Sequence record: OQ626344
Source: Escherichia phage S127 BCL3
Reading direction: 5' to 3' (one strand)
DNA: 64,000 bases
The position numbers and the translations under genes were made by a program. Numbering within the stretch: the stretch's first letter is position 1; each line of letters starts with the position of its first letter. Shown one piece after another: positions 12,678 through 15,540 of this stretch. The notes under the pieces were generated by a model. The model was given only the letters and a program-made list of their open reading frames with translations, was not told where the DNA came from and made no database searches.

Positions 12678-12734
12678 GGCGGGAAGTTTTCCCGCCTGTG
12701 TGTTTAATTATACCTATTGAGATTTACTTGTCAA
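12678..12734 (-). promoter_or_regulatory. consensus sigma70-like promoter plus conserved 5-prime UTR hairpin (unit P1)
   Basis: Minus strand TTGACA - 16 nt - TATAAT, then hairpin GGCGGGA-AAACT-TCCCGCC before SD. Confidence 0.6.
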
Positions 12735-12984
12735 CACTATTTTTTAAATTATTGTGGCGCAAAATGTTTAAAATCTCTTCAACGTCATCAACACGGCGGC
12801 AATTTTTAAACGCTACCAATTGCCCCATGATTTTAATCACTGGGCGGCCTTGCCAGTGCCCCTGGAGAAAGCGCGCTTTGACTTTATCGGTGGAACTATC
12901 ACGCCACCAAATGGCCTTGTTGTTGCAGTAGTAAAAATTATTCAGGACAACATCAACCTTATCAAAATTTTTTAATTTACGCAT
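12724..12984 (-). CDS. hypothetical protein
   Basis: 86-aa ORF; AAAGGAG SD. Confidence 0.55.
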   Translation of the reverse strand: MRKLKNFDKVDVVLNNFYYCNNKAIWWRDSSTDKVKARFLQGHWQGRPVIKIMGQLVAFKNCRRVDDVEEILNILRHNNLKNSVDK

Positions 12985-13047
12985 GGCGTTTACTCCTTTC
13001 TCTCTTTGATGTGGTTAGTATAGCTAACCTGTTTAAGATGTCAAGCT

Positions 13048-13218
13048 TTAAATAAAATCACTGTCAAAATATAACGCCCCGTTTTCATCCACGATCTCGA
13101 TCTTCTTCTTTCCTAGCTCCAGGATCATGTACCATGCTTGATCTTGTGCTGCCTCCAGGTTGTTGTACCGTGCAATATTTGCGCCTTTTTCTGTTACGTA
13201 AAACATTTTATTGCCCAT
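13048..13218 (-). CDS. hypothetical protein
   Basis: Start moved to Met24 of track ORF; AAGAGGG SD. Confidence 0.45.
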   Translation of the reverse strand: MGNKMFYVTEKGANIARYNNLEAAQDQAWYMILELGKKKIEIVDENGALYFDSDFI

Positions 13219-13450
13219 GGTGTTTCCCTCTTGTTTGGAATTGCTCACAATGTAAGGCCTGTAAGTAAACAACCTATAACAAAACATGGCCCCCTTTAAA
13301 ATGCACTATGCTATAAAACGTTTGCCATGTCAATGATATTTTTAACGCCATAAAACGGCCCTAAGCGATGTTTTCAGGTTAAGAAAGGCGATTGCATAGG
13401 TAGGGGCCTTTATGGCGCTTGTGGGGCCAACCAGGGGCGATATCGGCGGG

Positions 13451-13483
13451 ATAGAAATAAAAAGCCCCGCACAATGGCGGGGC
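13451..13483 (-). terminator. rho-independent terminator
   Basis: Hairpin GCCCCGC-N6-GCGGGGC followed on minus strand by CTTTTTATTT. Confidence 0.6.
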
Positions 13484-13491
13484 GTTGGTTG

Positions 13492-13689
13492 TTATCTGTC
13501 TTTATGGCGGTATCGTTCTGCCTGTCGTTCACGTTCCAAAAGTAGGCCAGGCAATTTACGATCATAATGATTTCGCCAGATCTTTCCAAATCTTTTTGGC
13601 TTATTCAGTTTATTGTTACGCTGGCGGCGTTCCGGCAACTCTTCGGAATCATGAGGACGCTTTACAATTTTTTCGAAATTAATTTTCAT
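13492..13689 (-). CDS. small basic protein
   Basis: Start moved to Met9 of track ORF; AAGGGGGA SD. Confidence 0.45.
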   Translation of the reverse strand: MKINFEKIVKRPHDSEELPERRQRNNKLNKPKRFGKIWRNHYDRKLPGLLLERERQAERYRHKDR

Positions 13690-14032
13690 AGCTTCCCCCT
13701 TTACTGATTTCAATATTTGCCTGAATCGCCCGGATACGGCGTTTTATAACCTCCTGATCCGTGCAATCATACCCCCAAAAGTCTACAATTTTTGCGCCTC
13801 CAGCTTTTAAGCGGTATAGTGTTTCTTGCATCTTGTAAGCTGGGATCGGTCGTGGTGTTACCTGGTCGCCTTTCTCATCCTTGTACTTGATAATATAATC
13901 TTCATTGTCGTTGAATACCCAAAATGGGTATTCTGTAAAGGCGTTGCTCTCTTTTTCGTTTTTGGATTGGATCTTGTTTACAATTAAAGCCGTAGCAATA
14001 GCGCCAATGATAAAACTTGCACCGCTGATCAT
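13679..14032 (-). CDS. membrane-anchored protein (N-terminal TM helix)
   Basis: Start moved to Met7 of track ORF; AAAGGAG SD; hydrophobic N-terminus. Confidence 0.5.
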   Translation of the reverse strand: MISGASFIIGAIATALIVNKIQSKNEKESNAFTEYPFWVFNDNEDYIIKYKDEKGDQVTPRPIPAYKMQETLYRLKAGGAKIVDFWGYDCTDQEVIKRRIRAIQANIEISKGGSYEN

Positions 14033-14107
14033 GTTACTTTCTCCTTTCATGGTGTTAATAAATTATCTTTATAGATGGCCCTGCAGCCAGGACCACCGAA
14101 AAAATAA

Positions 14108-14353
14108 CTATTTCACAATGCCTACAAAACAGATCCCGCCTTCCCCGACGTAGGCAATATCGGTCACTTTGTAGTCGGTCAAGATCTGTTTATTCAGATC
14201 ATTAATAAAATCGGTCATTGCGTTGGTGTAGTTGTCTTCCATGTCTAGGGAATAATCCCAGGTGTAAACCTTTTTACGTCCGAAGCCTTTTACCATGATC
14301 CGGGCGCTTTTGGTGTTGGTAGGGGCATAGTATTTGGTGATTAGTGCTGCCAT
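14108..14353 (-). CDS. hypothetical protein
   Basis: 81-aa ORF; GAGGAG SD. Confidence 0.55.
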   Translation of the reverse strand: MAALITKYYAPTNTKSARIMVKGFGRKKVYTWDYSLDMEDNYTNAMTDFINDLNKQILTDYKVTDIAYVGEGGICFVGIVK

Positions 14354-14393
14354 GGTTTTAACTCCTCATTAGTTCAGTGTTAACAGTGTAAAG

Positions 14394-14438
14394 TTTACTT
14401 TATTGATGGCCCTGGAGTCAAGGCCATCTAAAAATAAA
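14394..14438. repeat. 45-bp conserved intergenic element, copy 2
   Basis: Identical to copies at 10388 and 15014. Confidence 0.8.
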
Positions 14439-14439
14439 T

Positions 14440-14781
14440 TTACTCGTTTTCTTCCAGTTCTGCAAGCTCTTCTTTCACTTCTTCGAGCTCTGTCTGCAAT
14501 TCCTGGTATTCTTCATCGTCCTCAATATCCAGGCTGTCGATGTAGTCGCTAAATCCGCAACGGTAAGCGATAGGATCTAGCTCCTTGAGGATACGCGACG
14601 GAAGAAAAGAAATGTTTCCGATCATGATTTCGCCGTAGACCTCGTCTAACCATTCATCATAGTTTTCGTCGTACTTGTCCTCGTCGATTTCAAAGTTATC
14701 GATCTTGTTCTCAAGGTCCGCGATCTGTTTTTTCAGTGCGGCAACCTGAATAGCTTTTTCTGCGGCGGTCATAGTGGTCAT
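14440..14781 (-). CDS. acidic coiled-coil protein
   Basis: 113-aa ORF; AAAAGGAG SD; driven by unit P2. Confidence 0.55.
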   Translation of the reverse strand: MTTMTAAEKAIQVAALKKQIADLENKIDNFEIDEDKYDENYDEWLDEVYGEIMIGNISFLPSRILKELDPIAYRCGFSDYIDSLDIEDDEEYQELQTELEEVKEELAELEENE

Positions 14782-14806
14782 GGTGTTTTCTCCTTTTGTG
14801 TGTTCT

Positions 14807-14860
14807 GGGAAGTTTTCCCGTTTACGTGTTTAAGTATACCGATTTAAGTTAGCTTGTCAA
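14807..14860 (-). promoter_or_regulatory. sigma70-like promoter plus 5-prime UTR hairpin (unit P2)
   Basis: Minus strand TTGACA - 16 nt - TATACT, then hairpin GGGAA-AACTT-TTCCC. Confidence 0.55.
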
Positions 14861-14980
14861 TTAAAAATTTAAGAAAAATTTTGCAAAACTGTTAGCGCTA
14901 CTCATTAACATTTGCGCCAGGATGTAACCGACAACGCAAACGATAATAGTTACCTTTGTGTATTGGCGTGTAGTGCTCAT
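14861..14980 (-). CDS. small hydrophobic protein (39 aa), below track cutoff
   Basis: AAAAAGGGG SD then ATG; sits between element copy 3 and unit P2. Confidence 0.35.
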   Translation of the reverse strand: MSTTRQYTKVTIIVCVVGYILAQMLMSSANSFAKFFLNF

Positions 14981-15013
14981 CTTAAAGCCCCTTTTTCGCT
15001 TAACTGAGATTAG

Positions 15014-15058
15014 TTTACTTTATTGATGGCCCTGGAGTCAAGGCCATCTAAAAATAAA
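15014..15058. repeat. 45-bp conserved intergenic element, copy 3
   Basis: Identical core; starts right after stop of gene 15060..15464. Confidence 0.8.
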
Positions 15059-15059
15059 C

Positions 15060-15464
15060 TTAGTAAGTTTTCAGTACTTTCCCGTCCAACCTGTCAAGCT
15101 GGATCTCGATAGCTGCAGAAAACCTATTGTACACCACGTCGCCCATGGAATCCAACCAGTCTATGACGTTATACACTTGCTCTTTGTTCTTGCAGGTCCG
15201 GATCCGTTTCATGATGTAAGCCGGATCAATATTGGTACTTTCGTTGGTGTTCCCCTGTACCTGATTTGCCGTATTAGTTACATCTTTAATGGCCTTTACC
15301 ACCACCTGGAAGGGCTTTAAGGTGCCTTTTGCGTTCATCTCACGCGCTTTTGCGGCGCGGTTGTTATAGGTTACACAACGGCGGCAAATGTTCACTAAGT
15401 GCATGTCAATAATTTTTTCATCGTTTGCCAGTTCGTTCATGATGCGGCGTACGTTCTTATTCAT
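15060..15464 (-). CDS. hypothetical protein
   Basis: 134-aa ORF; AAAGGAAAAAG SD; driven by unit P3. Confidence 0.55.
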   Translation of the reverse strand: MNKNVRRIMNELANDEKIIDMHLVNICRRCVTYNNRAAKAREMNAKGTLKPFQVVVKAIKDVTNTANQVQGNTNESTNIDPAYIMKRIRTCKNKEQVYNVIDWLDSMGDVVYNRFSAAIEIQLDRLDGKVLKTY

Positions 15465-15483
15465 GATCTTTTTCCTTTGTGTT

Positions 15484-15540
15484 GGCGGGAAACATTCCCG
15501 CCTTTTGTGATTAGTTTACTTGAATTTTGCAGCGTGTCAA
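15484..15540 (-). promoter_or_regulatory. sigma70-like promoter plus 5-prime UTR hairpin (unit P3)
   Basis: Minus strand TTGACA - 16 nt - TAAACT, then hairpin GGCGGGA-ATGTT-TCCCGCC. Confidence 0.55.

What the first reader, a model, noticed from the sequence alone, without database searches (positions are those of the whole stretch)
12678..15540. Three near-consensus promoters each followed by a conserved GGCGGGA-loop-TCCCGCC hairpin in the 5-prime UTR
Upstream of genes starting at 12649, 14781 and 15464 the minus strand reads TTGACA - 16 nt - TATAAT/TATACT/TAAACT, then TAAACAC-like spacer, then a GC hairpin (12678-12696, 14807-14819, 15484-15502), then an AG-rich SD. The reuse of both promoter and leader hairpin suggests a phage early-promoter class whose transcripts share a structured leader (RNase III/E site, stabiliser, or target of a phage RNA-binding regulator). 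These units alternate with the 45-bp elements along the block.
Basis: seen in the sequence. Interest (0 to 1): 0.55.

Follow-up and report, generated by a model that had tools for sequence, protein, structure and literature searches.

The report
Phage early promoters with leader hairpins
In this rV5-like coliphage, three strong host-type promoters in a block of small unknown genes are each followed about 10 bases later by a GC hairpin, two of them strong and one weak, and this is a local example of a repeated promoter-plus-stem-loop cassette, already described in some T4-like phages, that marks the start of early messages and the borders of swappable gene modules.

Summary
The window is an rV5-like phage (Vequintavirus, 92-96% identity). 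The minus strand carries TTGACA-16 nt-TATAAT/TATACT/TAAACT promoters at 12734, 14860 and 15540. Two are followed 10 nt later by a perfect hairpin, GGCGGGAA-N3-TTCCCGCC (-14.6 kcal/mol). The third hairpin is a decayed 5-bp copy (-5.5 kcal/mol, not significant).

The stems vary less than flanking non-coding DNA in 13 relatives (4/32 versus 35/79 variable columns). Loops vary freely and were twice inverted to their exact reverse complement. Orthologous leader hairpins in Avunavirus change by compensatory pairs. The same stem family sits 9-12 nt after the -10 of many promoters in phi92-like phages. G-arm-first hairpins at this offset also recur in unrelated viral contigs.

Other promoters in the window carry stem-loops over the -10 or the -35; the latter are the 45-bp elements. 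Gene cassettes are gained and lost exactly at these elements. This matches the PeSL cassettes of RB49/phi1, in the subclass with the stem-loop downstream of -10.

The likeliest role is a hairpin near the 5' end of each early mRNA that protects or insulates it. That role is inferred, not shown. An RNase III site, a boxB-like site and a fixed-spacing operator are disfavoured. I rate it a new member of a known kind, of moderate interest.

The parts
12647..12752 (-). Cassette 1. AT-rich tract; -35 TTGACA (12734-12729); 16-nt spacer holding the stop codon of the upstream ORF (12726-12724); -10 TATAAT (12712-12707); 10-nt initial transcribed region TAAACACACA; hairpin; SD AGGAG (12662-12658); ATG 12649.
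12678..12696 (-). Leader hairpin 1, GGCGGGAA-AAC-TTCCCGCC. 8 bp, -14.6 kcal/mol.
   Evidence: Conserved in 13 relatives, with one G.U change, two G.A mismatches and one loop inversion.
12026..12649 (-). 207-aa ORF downstream of cassette 1 (rV5 ORF185 homologue, phrog_5162, function unknown).
14779..14880 (-). Cassette 2, a paralogue of cassette 1. -35 14860-14855; -10 TATACT 14838-14833; SD 14794-14790; ATG 14781. Equivalent to the annotated promoter P192 of rV5.
   Evidence: D6, 80% over 54 nt
14807..14819 (-). Decayed leader hairpin 2, GGGAA-AAC-TTCCC. 5 bp, about -5.5 kcal/mol, not distinguishable from shuffles, but kept in 11 relatives.
14440..14781 (-). 113-aa ORF downstream of cassette 2 (phrog_9294, function unknown).
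15462..15555 (-). Cassette 3. -35 15540-15535; -10 TAAACT 15518-15513; 10-nt initial transcribed region AATCACAAAA; hairpin; SD AAGGA 15477-15473; ATG 15464.
15484..15502 (-). Leader hairpin 3, GGCGGGAA-TGT-TTCCCGCC. 8 bp, -14.6 kcal/mol.
   Evidence: The seven G-C pairs are invariant in 12 relatives and the loop-closing A-T pair is lost in one (A13b). The loop is inverted in one relative and changed in another.
15060..15464 (-). 134-aa ORF downstream of cassette 3 (phrog_13245, function unknown).
15000..15062 (-). 45/63-bp element: hairpin GATGGCC-TTGACTCC-AGGGCCATC (15048-15025) with a -35-like TTGACT in the loop. It is one border of the module that is absent in phage magaca and in L126.
14380..14442 (-). 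Second copy of the 45/63-bp element (hairpin 14428-14405). It is the other border of the deletable module 15012-14438, which contains cassette 2.
10374..10436 (-). Third copy of the 45/63-bp element (hairpin 10422-10399). A diverged fourth copy lies at 14049-14111.
8845..8856 (-). Another leader stem-loop, GGGGCAAGCCCC, starting 10 nt after the -10 of the promoter at 8894. It is weak here; most relatives read GGGGGCAACAAGCCCC.
33721..33738 (-). Another leader hairpin, GGGGAGG-CACT-CCTCCCC, starting 11 nt after the -10 of the promoter at 33778 (-12.6 kcal/mol).
23877..23903 (-). Stem-loop GATAGGGCC...GGCCCTATC with the -10 TATAAT of the promoter at 23914 in its loop (the 'overlapping -10' sub-class). 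Similar stem-loops lie at 24218-24238 and 13013-13029.
13073..13327 (-). Window-specific 255-bp cassette (its own -10, leader and 79-aa ORF) bounded by TTGACA repeats. It is absent from rV5, magaca, A13b and L126.

Best explanation
The three sites are copies of a composite regulatory cassette. Each has an A/T-rich tract, a near-consensus sigma70 promoter, a G-arm-first GC stem-loop and a Shine-Dalgarno sequence. This is the same kind of element as the PeSLs (promoter-early stem-loops) of RB49/phi1, in the sub-class where the stem-loop lies just downstream of -10.

How it probably works. Host RNA polymerase should start about 7 nt after the -10. That is 2-4 nt before the stem, so each message of these small ORFan genes begins with a 7-8 bp GC hairpin. 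The hairpin most likely acts as RNA. It would be a protective or insulating structure near the 5' end of its own transcript. It would also be a 3' barrier for read-through transcripts from the cassette upstream.

The repeated cassettes also act as short homology patches at which gene modules are inserted, deleted and exchanged.

Shown here: the motifs, the fold, the fixed offset, conservation and compensatory change, recurrence across genera, and indel breakpoints at the elements.

Inferred: the transcription start, early timing, action at the RNA level and stabilisation.
For: 1. Identity. The window is 92-96% identical to rV5-like phages. rV5's own record annotates the 14860 equivalent as sigma70 promoter P192.

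2. Anatomy. Promoters score 10-12 of 12. The hairpins start exactly 10 nt after -10, fold at -14.6 kcal/mol and have no U-tract after them.

3. Positional enrichment. Of 62 promoters with a downstream SD-ATG in the window and two Avunavirus genomes, 9 have a strict GC hairpin starting 9-14 nt after -10. Background is 1.1%, p = 2.6e-8. A second cluster starts at -17 to -19 and overlaps the -10.

4. Constraint. Stem columns are variable in 4 of 32 cases, against 35 of 79 for spacer, initial transcribed region, loop and post-stem columns (p = 0.0018). The stem rate is similar to flanking coding DNA.

5. Structure rather than sequence is kept.
- Av-05 versus 24-2-1 orthologues: GGGGAGAG/CTCTCCCC becomes GGGGCAAG/CTTGCCTC, two compensatory pairs plus one G.U.
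- GACGGGGA/TCCCCGTC becomes GGCGGGGA/TCCCCGCC.
- A stem-loop overlapping -10 also changes by compensation.
- In an 18-sequence family alignment, 97.2% of cells pair, 7 of 8 pairs show double changes, and 0 of 500 shuffles reach this.

6. The ORF185 homologue carries leader hairpins of unrelated sequence at the same place in Av-05 (GGCG-ATACAC-CGCC) and in Klebsiella jumbo phage Muenster (10-bp stem).

7. Recurrence. phi92-like phages ALITA and PaulScherrer carry GGCGGGAAATGGTTTCCCGCC and close variants 9-11 nt after -10 at five or six promoters each. In IMG/VR, 18 of 125 promoter+GGCGGGAA matches and 8 of 94 promoter+GGGGCGAA matches have a Watson-Crick partner arm. Chance is 0.34% per match. 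Of those 26, 23 are followed by SD-ATG and 2 by a T-rich tail.

8. PeSL features. Arbiol et al. list five stem-loop positions, including 'downstream of the -10' (PMC2839356), and all are seen in this window. The genes are ORFans.

9. Modules are lost or gained exactly at the 45-bp repeats or at TTGACA hexamers.
Against: - No transcription start site or timing data exist for any rV5-like phage in the searched literature.
- With 2-5 unpaired 5' nucleotides predicted, protection from RNase E and RppH is not assured. RNase E cuts substrates with four unpaired nucleotides before a stem, and a simple orthogonal stem-loop is only a weak obstacle to its scanning (PMC11194081).
- The third hairpin is weak, and three relatives carry G.A mismatches in hairpin 1, so a strong stem is not indispensable.
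- Stem-loops that overlap -10 or -35 cannot be in their own promoter's transcript, yet they also evolve by compensation. That points to a role in read-through RNA or in DNA.
- Strand tests are indecisive: sense versus antisense stability is 11:6, p = 0.33, and stem wobbles run 5 sense-compatible G.U against 2 A.C.
- The loop inversions show that template switching operates on these palindromes. Template switching could create 'compensatory' changes without selection.
- The family alignment was built from sequences chosen because they form hairpins.
Confidence: 0.55

Rival explanations
1. The stem-loop is mainly a terminator or attenuator of transcription arriving from the cassette upstream. 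This is the role the PeSL authors proposed for stem-loops in every position. Its presence in the downstream transcript would then be incidental.
For: - In RB49/phi1 a PeSL stem-loop cut lacZ expression about as much as rrnB T1 (PMC2839356).
- Stem-loops overlapping -10 or -35 evolve by compensation just like the leader ones.
- The upstream ORFs end inside or at the promoter (stop codon at 12726-12724; TAA abutting the -35 at 14860). Downstream of -10 is therefore the first free place for a stem-loop.
Against: - No U-tract follows on the sense strand: ACTAATAAAG at hairpin 1 and AACACAAAGG at hairpin 3.
- Of 26 IMG/VR examples, only 2 have T-rich tails.
- The same block uses canonical hairpin+T-tract terminators where it needs them: 13483-13464, 20948-20927 and 10772-10752.
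- The tight 9-14 nt offset from -10 is not expected for a pure terminator.
Confidence: 0.18
2. The inverted repeat CGGGAA-N3-TTCCCG is a double-stranded DNA operator centred near +13. A dimeric phage or host regulator would bind it to shut off this promoter class.
For: - The identical half-sites occur at two promoters in the window.
- The same 8-mer arms recur in phi92-like phages even though spacers and initial transcribed regions are unrelated.
- The position just downstream of the start is a classic repressor position (established knowledge).
Against: - The distance between the GGCGGG and CCCGCC blocks is 7 bp in the window and 9 bp in the phi92-like copies.
- Orthologues change half-site sequence by compensatory pairs.
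- Unrelated stems occupy the same place upstream of the same gene in other phages.
- A permuted G-rich arm forms hairpins at this offset nearly as often (8/94 against 18/125).
Confidence: 0.08
3. The hairpins have no dedicated role. They are palindromes carried along and homogenised with the recombining promoter cassettes, or they serve only as DNA-level recombination sites, and they persist through template-switch repair.
For: - Two independent loop inversions to the exact reverse complement: APECc02 hairpin 1 (AAC to GTT) and L127 hairpin 3 (TGT to ACA).
- Cassette indels occur at repeats.
- Hairpin 2 has decayed, and G.A mismatches are tolerated.
Against: - Stems are as conserved as coding DNA while neighbouring non-coding bases vary.
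- The offset from -10 is fixed and enriched across unrelated phages.
- G-arm-first polarity is strict: 26/219 against 0/52 for a C-first arm, p = 0.0065.
Confidence: 0.1
4. They are intrinsic terminators for antisense (+ strand) transcription running into the promoters.
For: The + strand scan flags both hairpins as terminator-like: GGCGGGAAACATTCCCGCC followed by TTTTGTGATT, and GGCGGGAAGTTTTCCCGCC followed by TGTGTGTTTA.
Against: - Only the 15484 copy has a reasonable T-tract.
- All annotated genes in this block in every relative are on the other strand.
- The A-rich stretch before the stem is simply the initial transcribed region, and it varies in relatives.
Confidence: 0.04
5. They are RNase III processing sites or boxB-like antitermination hairpins.
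For: The only support is the general analogy with T7 early RNase III sites and lambda nut sites (from memory).
Against: - The stem is 8 bp, whereas RNase III substrates need about 20 bp.
- The loops are not conserved and were inverted.
- No Rfam family matches the region.
Confidence: 0.02

Closest known systems
PeSLs (promoter-early stem-loops) of T4-type phages RB49/phi1, PST and nt-1/KVP40 (Arbiol et al. 2010, PMC2839356; Comeau et al. 2014, PMC4122927)
   Same: - Sigma70-consensus promoter with an A/T-rich tract upstream (AAAAATAGT-TTGACA in both RB49 and this window).
- A Gn-loop-Cn stem-loop in one of five positions, including downstream of -10.
- SD and start codon of a small ORFan at the 3' end.
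- Many copies in a region of small unknown genes.
- Indels and replacements between close relatives with breakpoints in the elements.
   Different: - The host lineage is Vequintavirinae, with Stephanstirmvirinae and jumbo phages also involved, not T4-like phages.
- The leader (downstream of -10) position is common here, and one stem family (GGCGGGAA/TTCCCGCC) recurs. [quoted passage not shown]
- Terminator activity and mini-circles were shown for PeSLs and were not tested here.
- These hairpins lack U-tracts.
5'-terminal stem-loop mRNA stabilisers (ompA and papA 5' UTRs; Emory, Bouvet and Belasco 1992, as listed in PMC3997798; the T7 gene 10 leader GGGAGACC...GGUUUCCC, from memory)
   Same: - A GC hairpin within a few nucleotides of the predicted 5' end of an mRNA, followed by an unstructured A-rich leader and an SD.
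- G-arm-first polarity, as in the T7 gene 10 leader.
   Different: - The 5' end is not mapped here.
- The 2-5 predicted unpaired nucleotides are at the edge of what protects.
- No half-life data exist.
Intrinsic (Rho-independent) terminators
   Same: A short GC-rich hairpin in an intergenic gap.
   Different: No U-tract on the transcribed strand. Canonical terminators with T-tracts occur elsewhere in the same block.
Small hairpin-loop inversions at perfect inverted repeats (template switching at quasipalindromes; known from plastid genomes and E. coli mutagenesis, from memory)
   Same: Two relatives carry the exact reverse complement of the loop with the stem unchanged.
   Different: This is a mutational signature, not a function.

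Membership tests
PeSL (promoter-early stem-loop cassette) | Sigma70-consensus -35 and -10 hexamers | tested here: met
   12/12, 11/12 and 10/12 matches with 16-nt spacers.
PeSL (promoter-early stem-loop cassette) | A/T-rich region upstream of -35 | tested here: met
   aataatttaaaaaatagtg, aaatttttcttaaatttttaa and cgaataaaaattg precede the three -35 hexamers. RB49 shows the same AAAATAGT-TTGACA context.
PeSL (promoter-early stem-loop cassette) | Stable stem-loop, often Gn-loop-Cn, in one of five positions relative to the promoter (including downstream of -10) | tested here: met
   Two 8-bp G-first hairpins lie 10 nt after -10, and the third is weak. Other promoters in the window have stem-loops over -10, over -35 or spanning the spacer. 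Definition.
PeSL (promoter-early stem-loop cassette) | SD and start codon of a small ORFan at the 3' end; location in a region of small unknown genes | tested here: met
   ORFs of 113-207 aa with no Pfam family; all PHROG matches are 'unknown function'.
PeSL (promoter-early stem-loop cassette) | Indels and replacements between close relatives have breakpoints inside the elements (modular shuffling) | tested here: met
   - magaca and L126 lack 15012-14438, the segment between two 45-bp repeats.
- Three allelic states at 13333/13044 are joined at TTGACA.
- Av-05 versus 24-2-1 shows a cassette inserted right after a -35.
- For the three hairpin units themselves only paralogy was seen, with no breakpoint inside a hairpin.
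PeSL (promoter-early stem-loop cassette) | The stem-loop attenuates or terminates upstream transcription, and the promoter is very strong (reporter assays) | not testable with these tools
   Sequence only. No U-tract follows the hairpins.
PeSL (promoter-early stem-loop cassette) | [quoted passage not shown] | not testable with these tools
   Needs inverse PCR on infected cells or virion DNA.
PeSL (promoter-early stem-loop cassette) | Described only in T4-like myoviruses (Straboviridae) | tested here: not met
   The window is Vequintavirus. No paper in the library links PeSLs to rV5-like phages. This is a matter of host range of the concept, not of mechanism.
5'-terminal stem-loop mRNA stabiliser | Hairpin within about 0-4 unpaired nucleotides of the mRNA 5' end | tested here: inconclusive
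   The stem starts 10 nt after -10. With the usual start 6-8 nt after -10, this leaves 2-4 unpaired nucleotides. No start site is mapped.
5'-terminal stem-loop mRNA stabiliser | Pairing, not sequence, is maintained in evolution | tested here: met
   Compensatory pairs occur in Avunavirus orthologues. The family alignment shows 97.2% paired cells and 7 of 8 pairs with double changes (with ascertainment caveat).
5'-terminal stem-loop mRNA stabiliser | Removing the stem shortens mRNA half-life in an RNase E / RppH-dependent way | not testable with these tools
   Experimental.
Intrinsic terminator | GC hairpin immediately followed by a U-tract on the transcribed strand | tested here: not met
   The sense-strand tails are ACTAATAAAG and AACACAAAGG. 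Only the + strand of 15484 has TTTTGTGATT.
RNase III processing site | About 20 bp of double-stranded RNA | tested here: not met
   The stem is 8 bp.
boxB/nut-type antitermination hairpin | Conserved loop read by the antiterminator protein | tested here: not met
   All three loop columns vary at both sites, and the loop is inverted in two relatives.
Palindromic operator | Conserved half-sites at a fixed spacing | tested here: not met
   The half-site blocks are 7 bp apart here and 9 bp apart in phi92-like copies. Half-site sequence changes by compensation.
Any Rfam family | Match to a curated covariance model | tested here: not met
   Only two sub-threshold chance matches were found in 6-26 kb, and neither lies at the hairpins.

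The most novel reading that the evidence does not exclude
The G-arm-first leader hairpin, with consensus GGCGGGAA-loop-TTCCCGCC and shared by rV5-like, Av-05-like and phi92-like phages, would be a dedicated tag on phage early messages. It would be read by a phage or host factor. Alternatively it would exempt these mRNAs from a phage-triggered acceleration of RNase E decay. A protein with Srd-like similarity is encoded at 43423-44409, and T4 Srd stimulates RNase E on host mRNA. Under this reading the hairpin would define a co-regulated early regulon rather than a generic stabiliser.
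Probability: 0.12. Interest if true: 0.65.

Novelty: new member of a known kind. Interest (0 to 1): 0.4.

Why it matters
It would extend the PeSL idea of mobile promoter/stem-loop cassettes that frame swappable ORFan genes. The idea would reach from T4-like phages to the rV5-like and phi92-like phages now widely used in phage therapy and biocontrol, and apparently to some jumbo phages.

It also gives a concrete, testable rule for early-gene expression in these phages. The rule is a consensus sigma70 promoter, about 10 nt, a G-first GC hairpin, then the SD. That rule is useful for annotating promoters that the rV5 record left unmarked (the 12734 and 15540 equivalents). It helps predict where gene modules recombine, and it could guide the design of stable expression cassettes.

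The strict G-first polarity and the fixed offset are simple observations that still lack an explanation.

Tried and rejected
- Hairpin pattern in IMG/VR. 120 hits, none behind a promoter and 45 of 120 with T-rich tails.
- The search for related loci with the 207-aa protein. It returned only two close relatives, so I switched to the GenBank phage collection.
- Rfam on 6-26 kb. Nothing relevant.
- Literature searches for rV5/Vequintavirus start-site or transcriptome data. None found. The O177 phage paper lists only predicted terminators and promoters.
- Strand-of-action test. My first version selected on sense-strand energy and was biased (17:4). The symmetric version gives 11:6, p = 0.33. The wobble tally is 5 against 2. 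I make no strand call.
- I first mis-typed the L126 variant in the family alignment. I corrected it from the sequence and recounted; the totals were unchanged.
- Is GGCGGGAA specific? A permuted G-rich arm behaves similarly (8/94 against 18/125) and a C-first arm never does (0/52). Sequence-specific recognition is therefore not needed to explain the recurrence.
- RNase III site, boxB, antisense terminator and fixed-spacing operator readings. These are rejected or down-weighted for the reasons given under rival explanations.
- The 8894 leader stem-loop in relatives. It is poorly conserved, so not every leader stem-loop is under equal constraint.

Full report
**What the window is.** The 4.5 kb around the finding is 92-96% identical to rV5-like phages (Vequintavirus), for example Phage 203/206 and rV5 DQ832317. 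In rV5 this is the block of small hypothetical genes ORF185-197. They are all on one strand, which is the minus strand of the window. The rV5 record annotates sigma70-type promoters here, including P192, the equivalent of the promoter at 14860. It does not annotate the equivalents of 12734 and 15540. The rV5 paper reports 33 predicted sigma70 promoters and 20 terminators. It gives no start-site data and does not mention leader hairpins (PMC3606486).

**Checking the observation.**
- The three promoters are as described. They read TTGACA, a 16-nt spacer, then TATAAT, TATACT or TAAACT, scoring 12, 11 and 10 of 12.
- GGCGGGA-N5-TCCCGCC occurs exactly twice in the 64 kb, at 12678-12696 and 15484-15502.
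- Both copies begin 10 nt after a -10 hexamer. Both fold into an 8-bp stem with a 3-nt loop at -14.6 kcal/mol, and 0 of 200 shuffles are as stable.
- The third 'hairpin' (14807-14819) is a decayed copy. The outer GG/CC pairs are replaced by AA/AG, which leaves 5 bp at about -5.5 kcal/mol. That is not distinguishable from shuffles.
- The 12734 and 14860 units are paralogues, 80% identical over 54 nt that include the spacer (D6).
- The 12734 and 15540 units share little beyond the hexamers and the hairpin (D18).
- The downstream genes (207, 113 and 134 aa) and their neighbours have no Pfam family and only 'unknown function' PHROGs.

**The wider pattern in the window.** Listing every good minus-strand promoter with what follows it shows that stem-loops are a general feature of these promoters.
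- Some lie just after -10: 12734, 15540, weakly 14860 and 8894, and 33778 with GGGGAGG-CACT-CCTCCCC.
- Some have the -10 in their loop: 23914, 24251, 13044 and 19255.
- One spans the spacer: 25113.
- Some have the -35 in their loop: 6628 and the three 45-bp elements at 15041, 14421 and 10415.

I counted 62 promoters with a downstream SD-ATG in the window and in two Avunavirus genomes. Strict GC hairpins start in two clusters, 9-14 nt after -10 (9 promoters) and 17-19 nt before the end of -10. Against a genome-wide rate of 1.1% per 6-nt window, the first cluster gives p = 2.6e-8. The Avunavirus orthologues are not independent, and intergenic DNA may be richer in hairpins than the genome average.

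**Conservation.** I compared 13 Vequintavirus relatives, 11 GenBank phages and 2 IMG/VR contigs.
- The -35 hexamers never vary, and each -10 varies at one position.
- The stems of hairpins 1 and 3 vary in 4 of 32 columns.
- Spacer, initial transcribed region, loop and post-stem positions vary in 35 of 79 columns (Fisher p = 0.0018).
- The stem rate equals that of the flanking coding DNA, 65 of 391.
- The stem changes are one C-to-T giving G.U (L127), two different C-to-A changes giving G.A mismatches (L126; RudolfGeigy and bov10K2), and loss of the innermost A-T pair (A13b).
- All loop positions vary.
- Twice the loop became its exact reverse complement with the stem untouched: AAC to GTT in APECc02 hairpin 1, and TGT to ACA in L127 hairpin 3. 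That is the signature of template switching at a perfect palindrome. It shows the loop sequence and its orientation are not selected.
- The weak hairpin 2 is nevertheless kept in 11 relatives.

**More distant phages.**
- The 207-aa gene has homologues in Avunavirus (58-60% identity) and in jumbo phages.
- In Av-05 and 24-2-1 it is preceded by TTGACA...TACTAT, 11 nt, then GGCG-ATACAC-CGCC.
- In Klebsiella phage Muenster it is preceded by TATAAT, 14 nt, then a 10-bp hairpin of unrelated sequence. In 121Q there is none.
- Comparing Av-05 with 24-2-1 across the early region, orthologous stem-loops differ by compensatory pairs while the flanks are identical:
  - GGGGAGAG/CTCTCCCC versus GGGGCAAG/CTTGCCTC (two double changes and one G.U);
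  - GACGGGGA/TCCCCGTC versus GGCGGGGA/TCCCCGCC;
  - a stem-loop overlapping a -10, TATACCG.../...CGGTATA versus TATGCCGTG/CACGGCATA.
- phi92-like phages ALITA and PaulScherrer (Justusliebigvirus, a different subfamily) share some cassettes with Av-05 at about 78% identity. They carry the same stem family 9-11 nt after the -10 of five or six promoters each. The stems are GGCGGGAAATGGTTTCCCGCC, GCGGGGAAATGGTTTCCCCGC, GGGCGGGAAATGGTTTCCCGCTT, GGGCGGCAATAGTGCCGCTC and GGGCGGGGCA...GCCC. Their spacers and initial transcribed regions are unrelated.
- An alignment of 18 such hairpins pairs in 97.2% of cells, with double changes at 7 of 8 pairs, and 0 of 500 shuffles reach this. The sequences were chosen as hairpins, so this number overstates independent support. 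The orthologue comparisons do not have that problem.

**Is the sequence GGCGGGAA special?** I scanned IMG/VR for TTGACA-N16-18-TANNNT-N8-12 followed by a given arm.
Of these, 18 have a Watson-Crick partner arm (at least 7 of 8). Of those 18, 17 are followed by SD-ATG and 1 by a T-rich tail.
- The permuted arm GGGGCGAA gave 8 of 94.
- The C-first arm CCCGCCAA gave 0 of 52.
- Chance is 0.34% per match. G-first versus C-first gives p = 0.0065.
- Some hits are in high-GC contigs unrelated to rV5.

So a G-arm-first GC hairpin about 10 nt after a consensus sigma70 promoter is a widespread phage design. It is not a motif peculiar to one regulator. The polarity bias is real and unexplained. A purine-rich initial transcribed region, or avoidance of a transient C-rich stretch, are guesses.

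**Cassettes and recombination.**
- Phage magaca and contig L126 lack window 15012-14438. This is the segment holding the small ORF193 homologue, cassette 2 and its gene. A single hybrid 45-bp element sits at the junction.
- The window itself has an extra 255-bp cassette (13073-13327, with its own -10, leader and 79-aa ORF) bounded by TTGACA. rV5 and A13b show two further states, each joined exactly at a TTGACA.
- Between Av-05 and 24-2-1 a cassette is inserted immediately after a shared -35, and both alternative leaders have a hairpin 11-13 nt after -10.
- JEP1 (Vequintavirus) shares 743 nt at 91% with Av-05.
- rV5 ORF205 (window 18551-18742) is 84.5% identical in DNA to RB49p260, with the homology ending at the ORF borders.

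**Comparison with what is known.** Arbiol et al. (2010) defined PeSLs in RB49/phi1. They are sigma70-consensus early promoters with an A/T-rich upstream tract and a stable, often Gn-loop-Cn, stem-loop. They occur in five sub-classes by stem-loop position, including 'downstream of the -10'. They end in the SD and start codon of an ORFan, are concentrated in hyperplastic regions, and mediate modular shuffling (PMC2839356; PMC4122927). Every sequence-level feature is met here (see the membership table). RB49 promoters even share the AAAATAGT-TTGACA context. What differs is the phage lineage and the prominence of the leader position. No paper in the searched library links PeSLs to rV5-like phages.

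**Mechanism.** The start site is not mapped. With the usual start 6-8 nt after -10, the stem begins at about +3 to +5, so the hairpin is in the transcript.

It is unlikely to be any of the following.
- A terminator. There is no U-tract, and canonical terminators are used elsewhere in the block.
- An RNase III site. The stem is only 8 bp.
- A boxB-like site. The loops are free to vary.
- A fixed-spacing operator. Half-site spacing is 7 versus 9 bp, and half-sites change by compensation.

The best remaining reading is an RNA structure that protects or insulates the ends of messages, in the manner of the ompA, papA and T7 gene 10 5' stem-loops (references in PMC3997798). It could double as a 3' barrier for read-through RNA.

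Cautions on this reading:
- Several unpaired 5' nucleotides may still let RppH and RNase E in, and a simple stem-loop is a weak obstacle to RNase E scanning (PMC11194081).
- Stem-loops over -10 or -35 covary too, which points to a role in read-through RNA or in DNA.
- Tests of which strand folds better are indecisive.
- Template switching could mimic compensation.

A speculative link: the window encodes a protein with Srd-like similarity at 43423-44409 (phrog_1400, E = 4e-10; best hit phrog_3118, annotated 'HNH endonuclease'). rV5 gp11 was called an Srd homologue. T4 Srd stimulates RNase E on host mRNA (Qi et al. 2015, as cited in PMC4980113).

**Verdict.** It is best filed as PeSL-type promoter/stem-loop cassettes, leader sub-class, in a new phage lineage. 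The function of the hairpin remains inferred. I rate interest as moderate (0.4) and novelty as a new member of a known kind.

Noticed in passing
window 15000-15062, 14380-14442, 10374-10436; diverged copy 14049-14111: The 45/63-bp repeats are a hairpin, GATGGCC-TTGACTCC-AGGGCCATC, with a -35-like hexamer in the loop and TAAACT 18 nt downstream. The segment between the first two copies is missing in phage magaca and in IMG/VR contig L126, which have one hybrid copy at the junction.
   Followed up: yes
window 13073-13327: A 255-bp cassette carrying a 79-aa ORF is present in this window but absent from rV5, magaca, A13b and L126. Three allelic states are joined exactly at TTGACA hexamers.
   Followed up: yes
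L137 (APECc02) 5041-5078 and L127 (IMG/VR 3300010279_000001) 853-890, orthologues of window 12678-12696 and 15484-15502: The hairpin loops are inverted to their exact reverse complement (AAC to GTT; TGT to ACA) with the stems unchanged. This is a signature of template switching at palindromes.
   Followed up: yes
window 18534-18754 (ORF 18551-18742, minus strand) vs L147 (RB49) 6405-6625: This 63-aa ORFan is 82-85% identical in DNA (about 90% in protein for the rV5 copy) to RB49p260 of the unrelated T4-like phage RB49. The homology stops at the ORF borders, which points to recent gene exchange between rV5-like and RB49-like phages.
   Followed up: partly
window 31071-31093 and 20927-20949 (minus strand): These are two near-identical copies (96% over 28 nt) of the terminator hairpin GGCCCTGCCCGAAAGGGTGGGGC plus a T-tract. 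The 31093 copy lies only about 20 nt after the -10 of a good promoter (-35 at 31143), which suggests a very short transcript or an attenuator.
   Followed up: no
window 16935-17115: This gene-poor stretch holds dispersed 47-55-nt direct repeats, GAAAACGAAAAACAGATCGAGTACT-like (repeat finder D5 and D12). It may correspond to the 'non-coding' box drawn in the rV5 genome map. Its function is unknown.
   Followed up: no
L150 (JEP1, Vequintavirus) 2501-3243 vs L145 (Av-05) 25543-26285: A 743-nt stretch of two or three small-gene cassettes is 91% identical between phages of different genera whose other shared genes are far more diverged (the 207-aa protein is about 58% identical, 66% in DNA). This points to cassette transfer.
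   Followed up: partly
window 43423-44409 (+), next to divergent promoters at 43349 (-) and 43363 (+): This 329-aa protein matches PHROGs annotated 'HNH endonuclease' (E = 2e-111), 'decoy of host sigma70' (E = 2e-12) and 'Srd anti-sigma factor' (E = 4e-10). It is the likely homologue of rV5 gp11.
   Followed up: partly
L143 (Klebsiella jumbo phage Muenster) 226-5600, within its terminal repeat: Many consensus promoters with an AAAAAGTAC-TTGAC context are followed 13-14 nt after -10 by strong hairpins of various sequences. The same design therefore occurs in the early region of Alcyoneusvirus jumbo phages.
   Followed up: partly
one search hit list: Seventeen GenBank records named 'Campylobacter phage' (the one fetched, A13b, is marked UNVERIFIED) are 92% identical to this coliphage region. 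They are probably rV5-like coliphages that were mislabelled or came from mixed samples.
   Followed up: no
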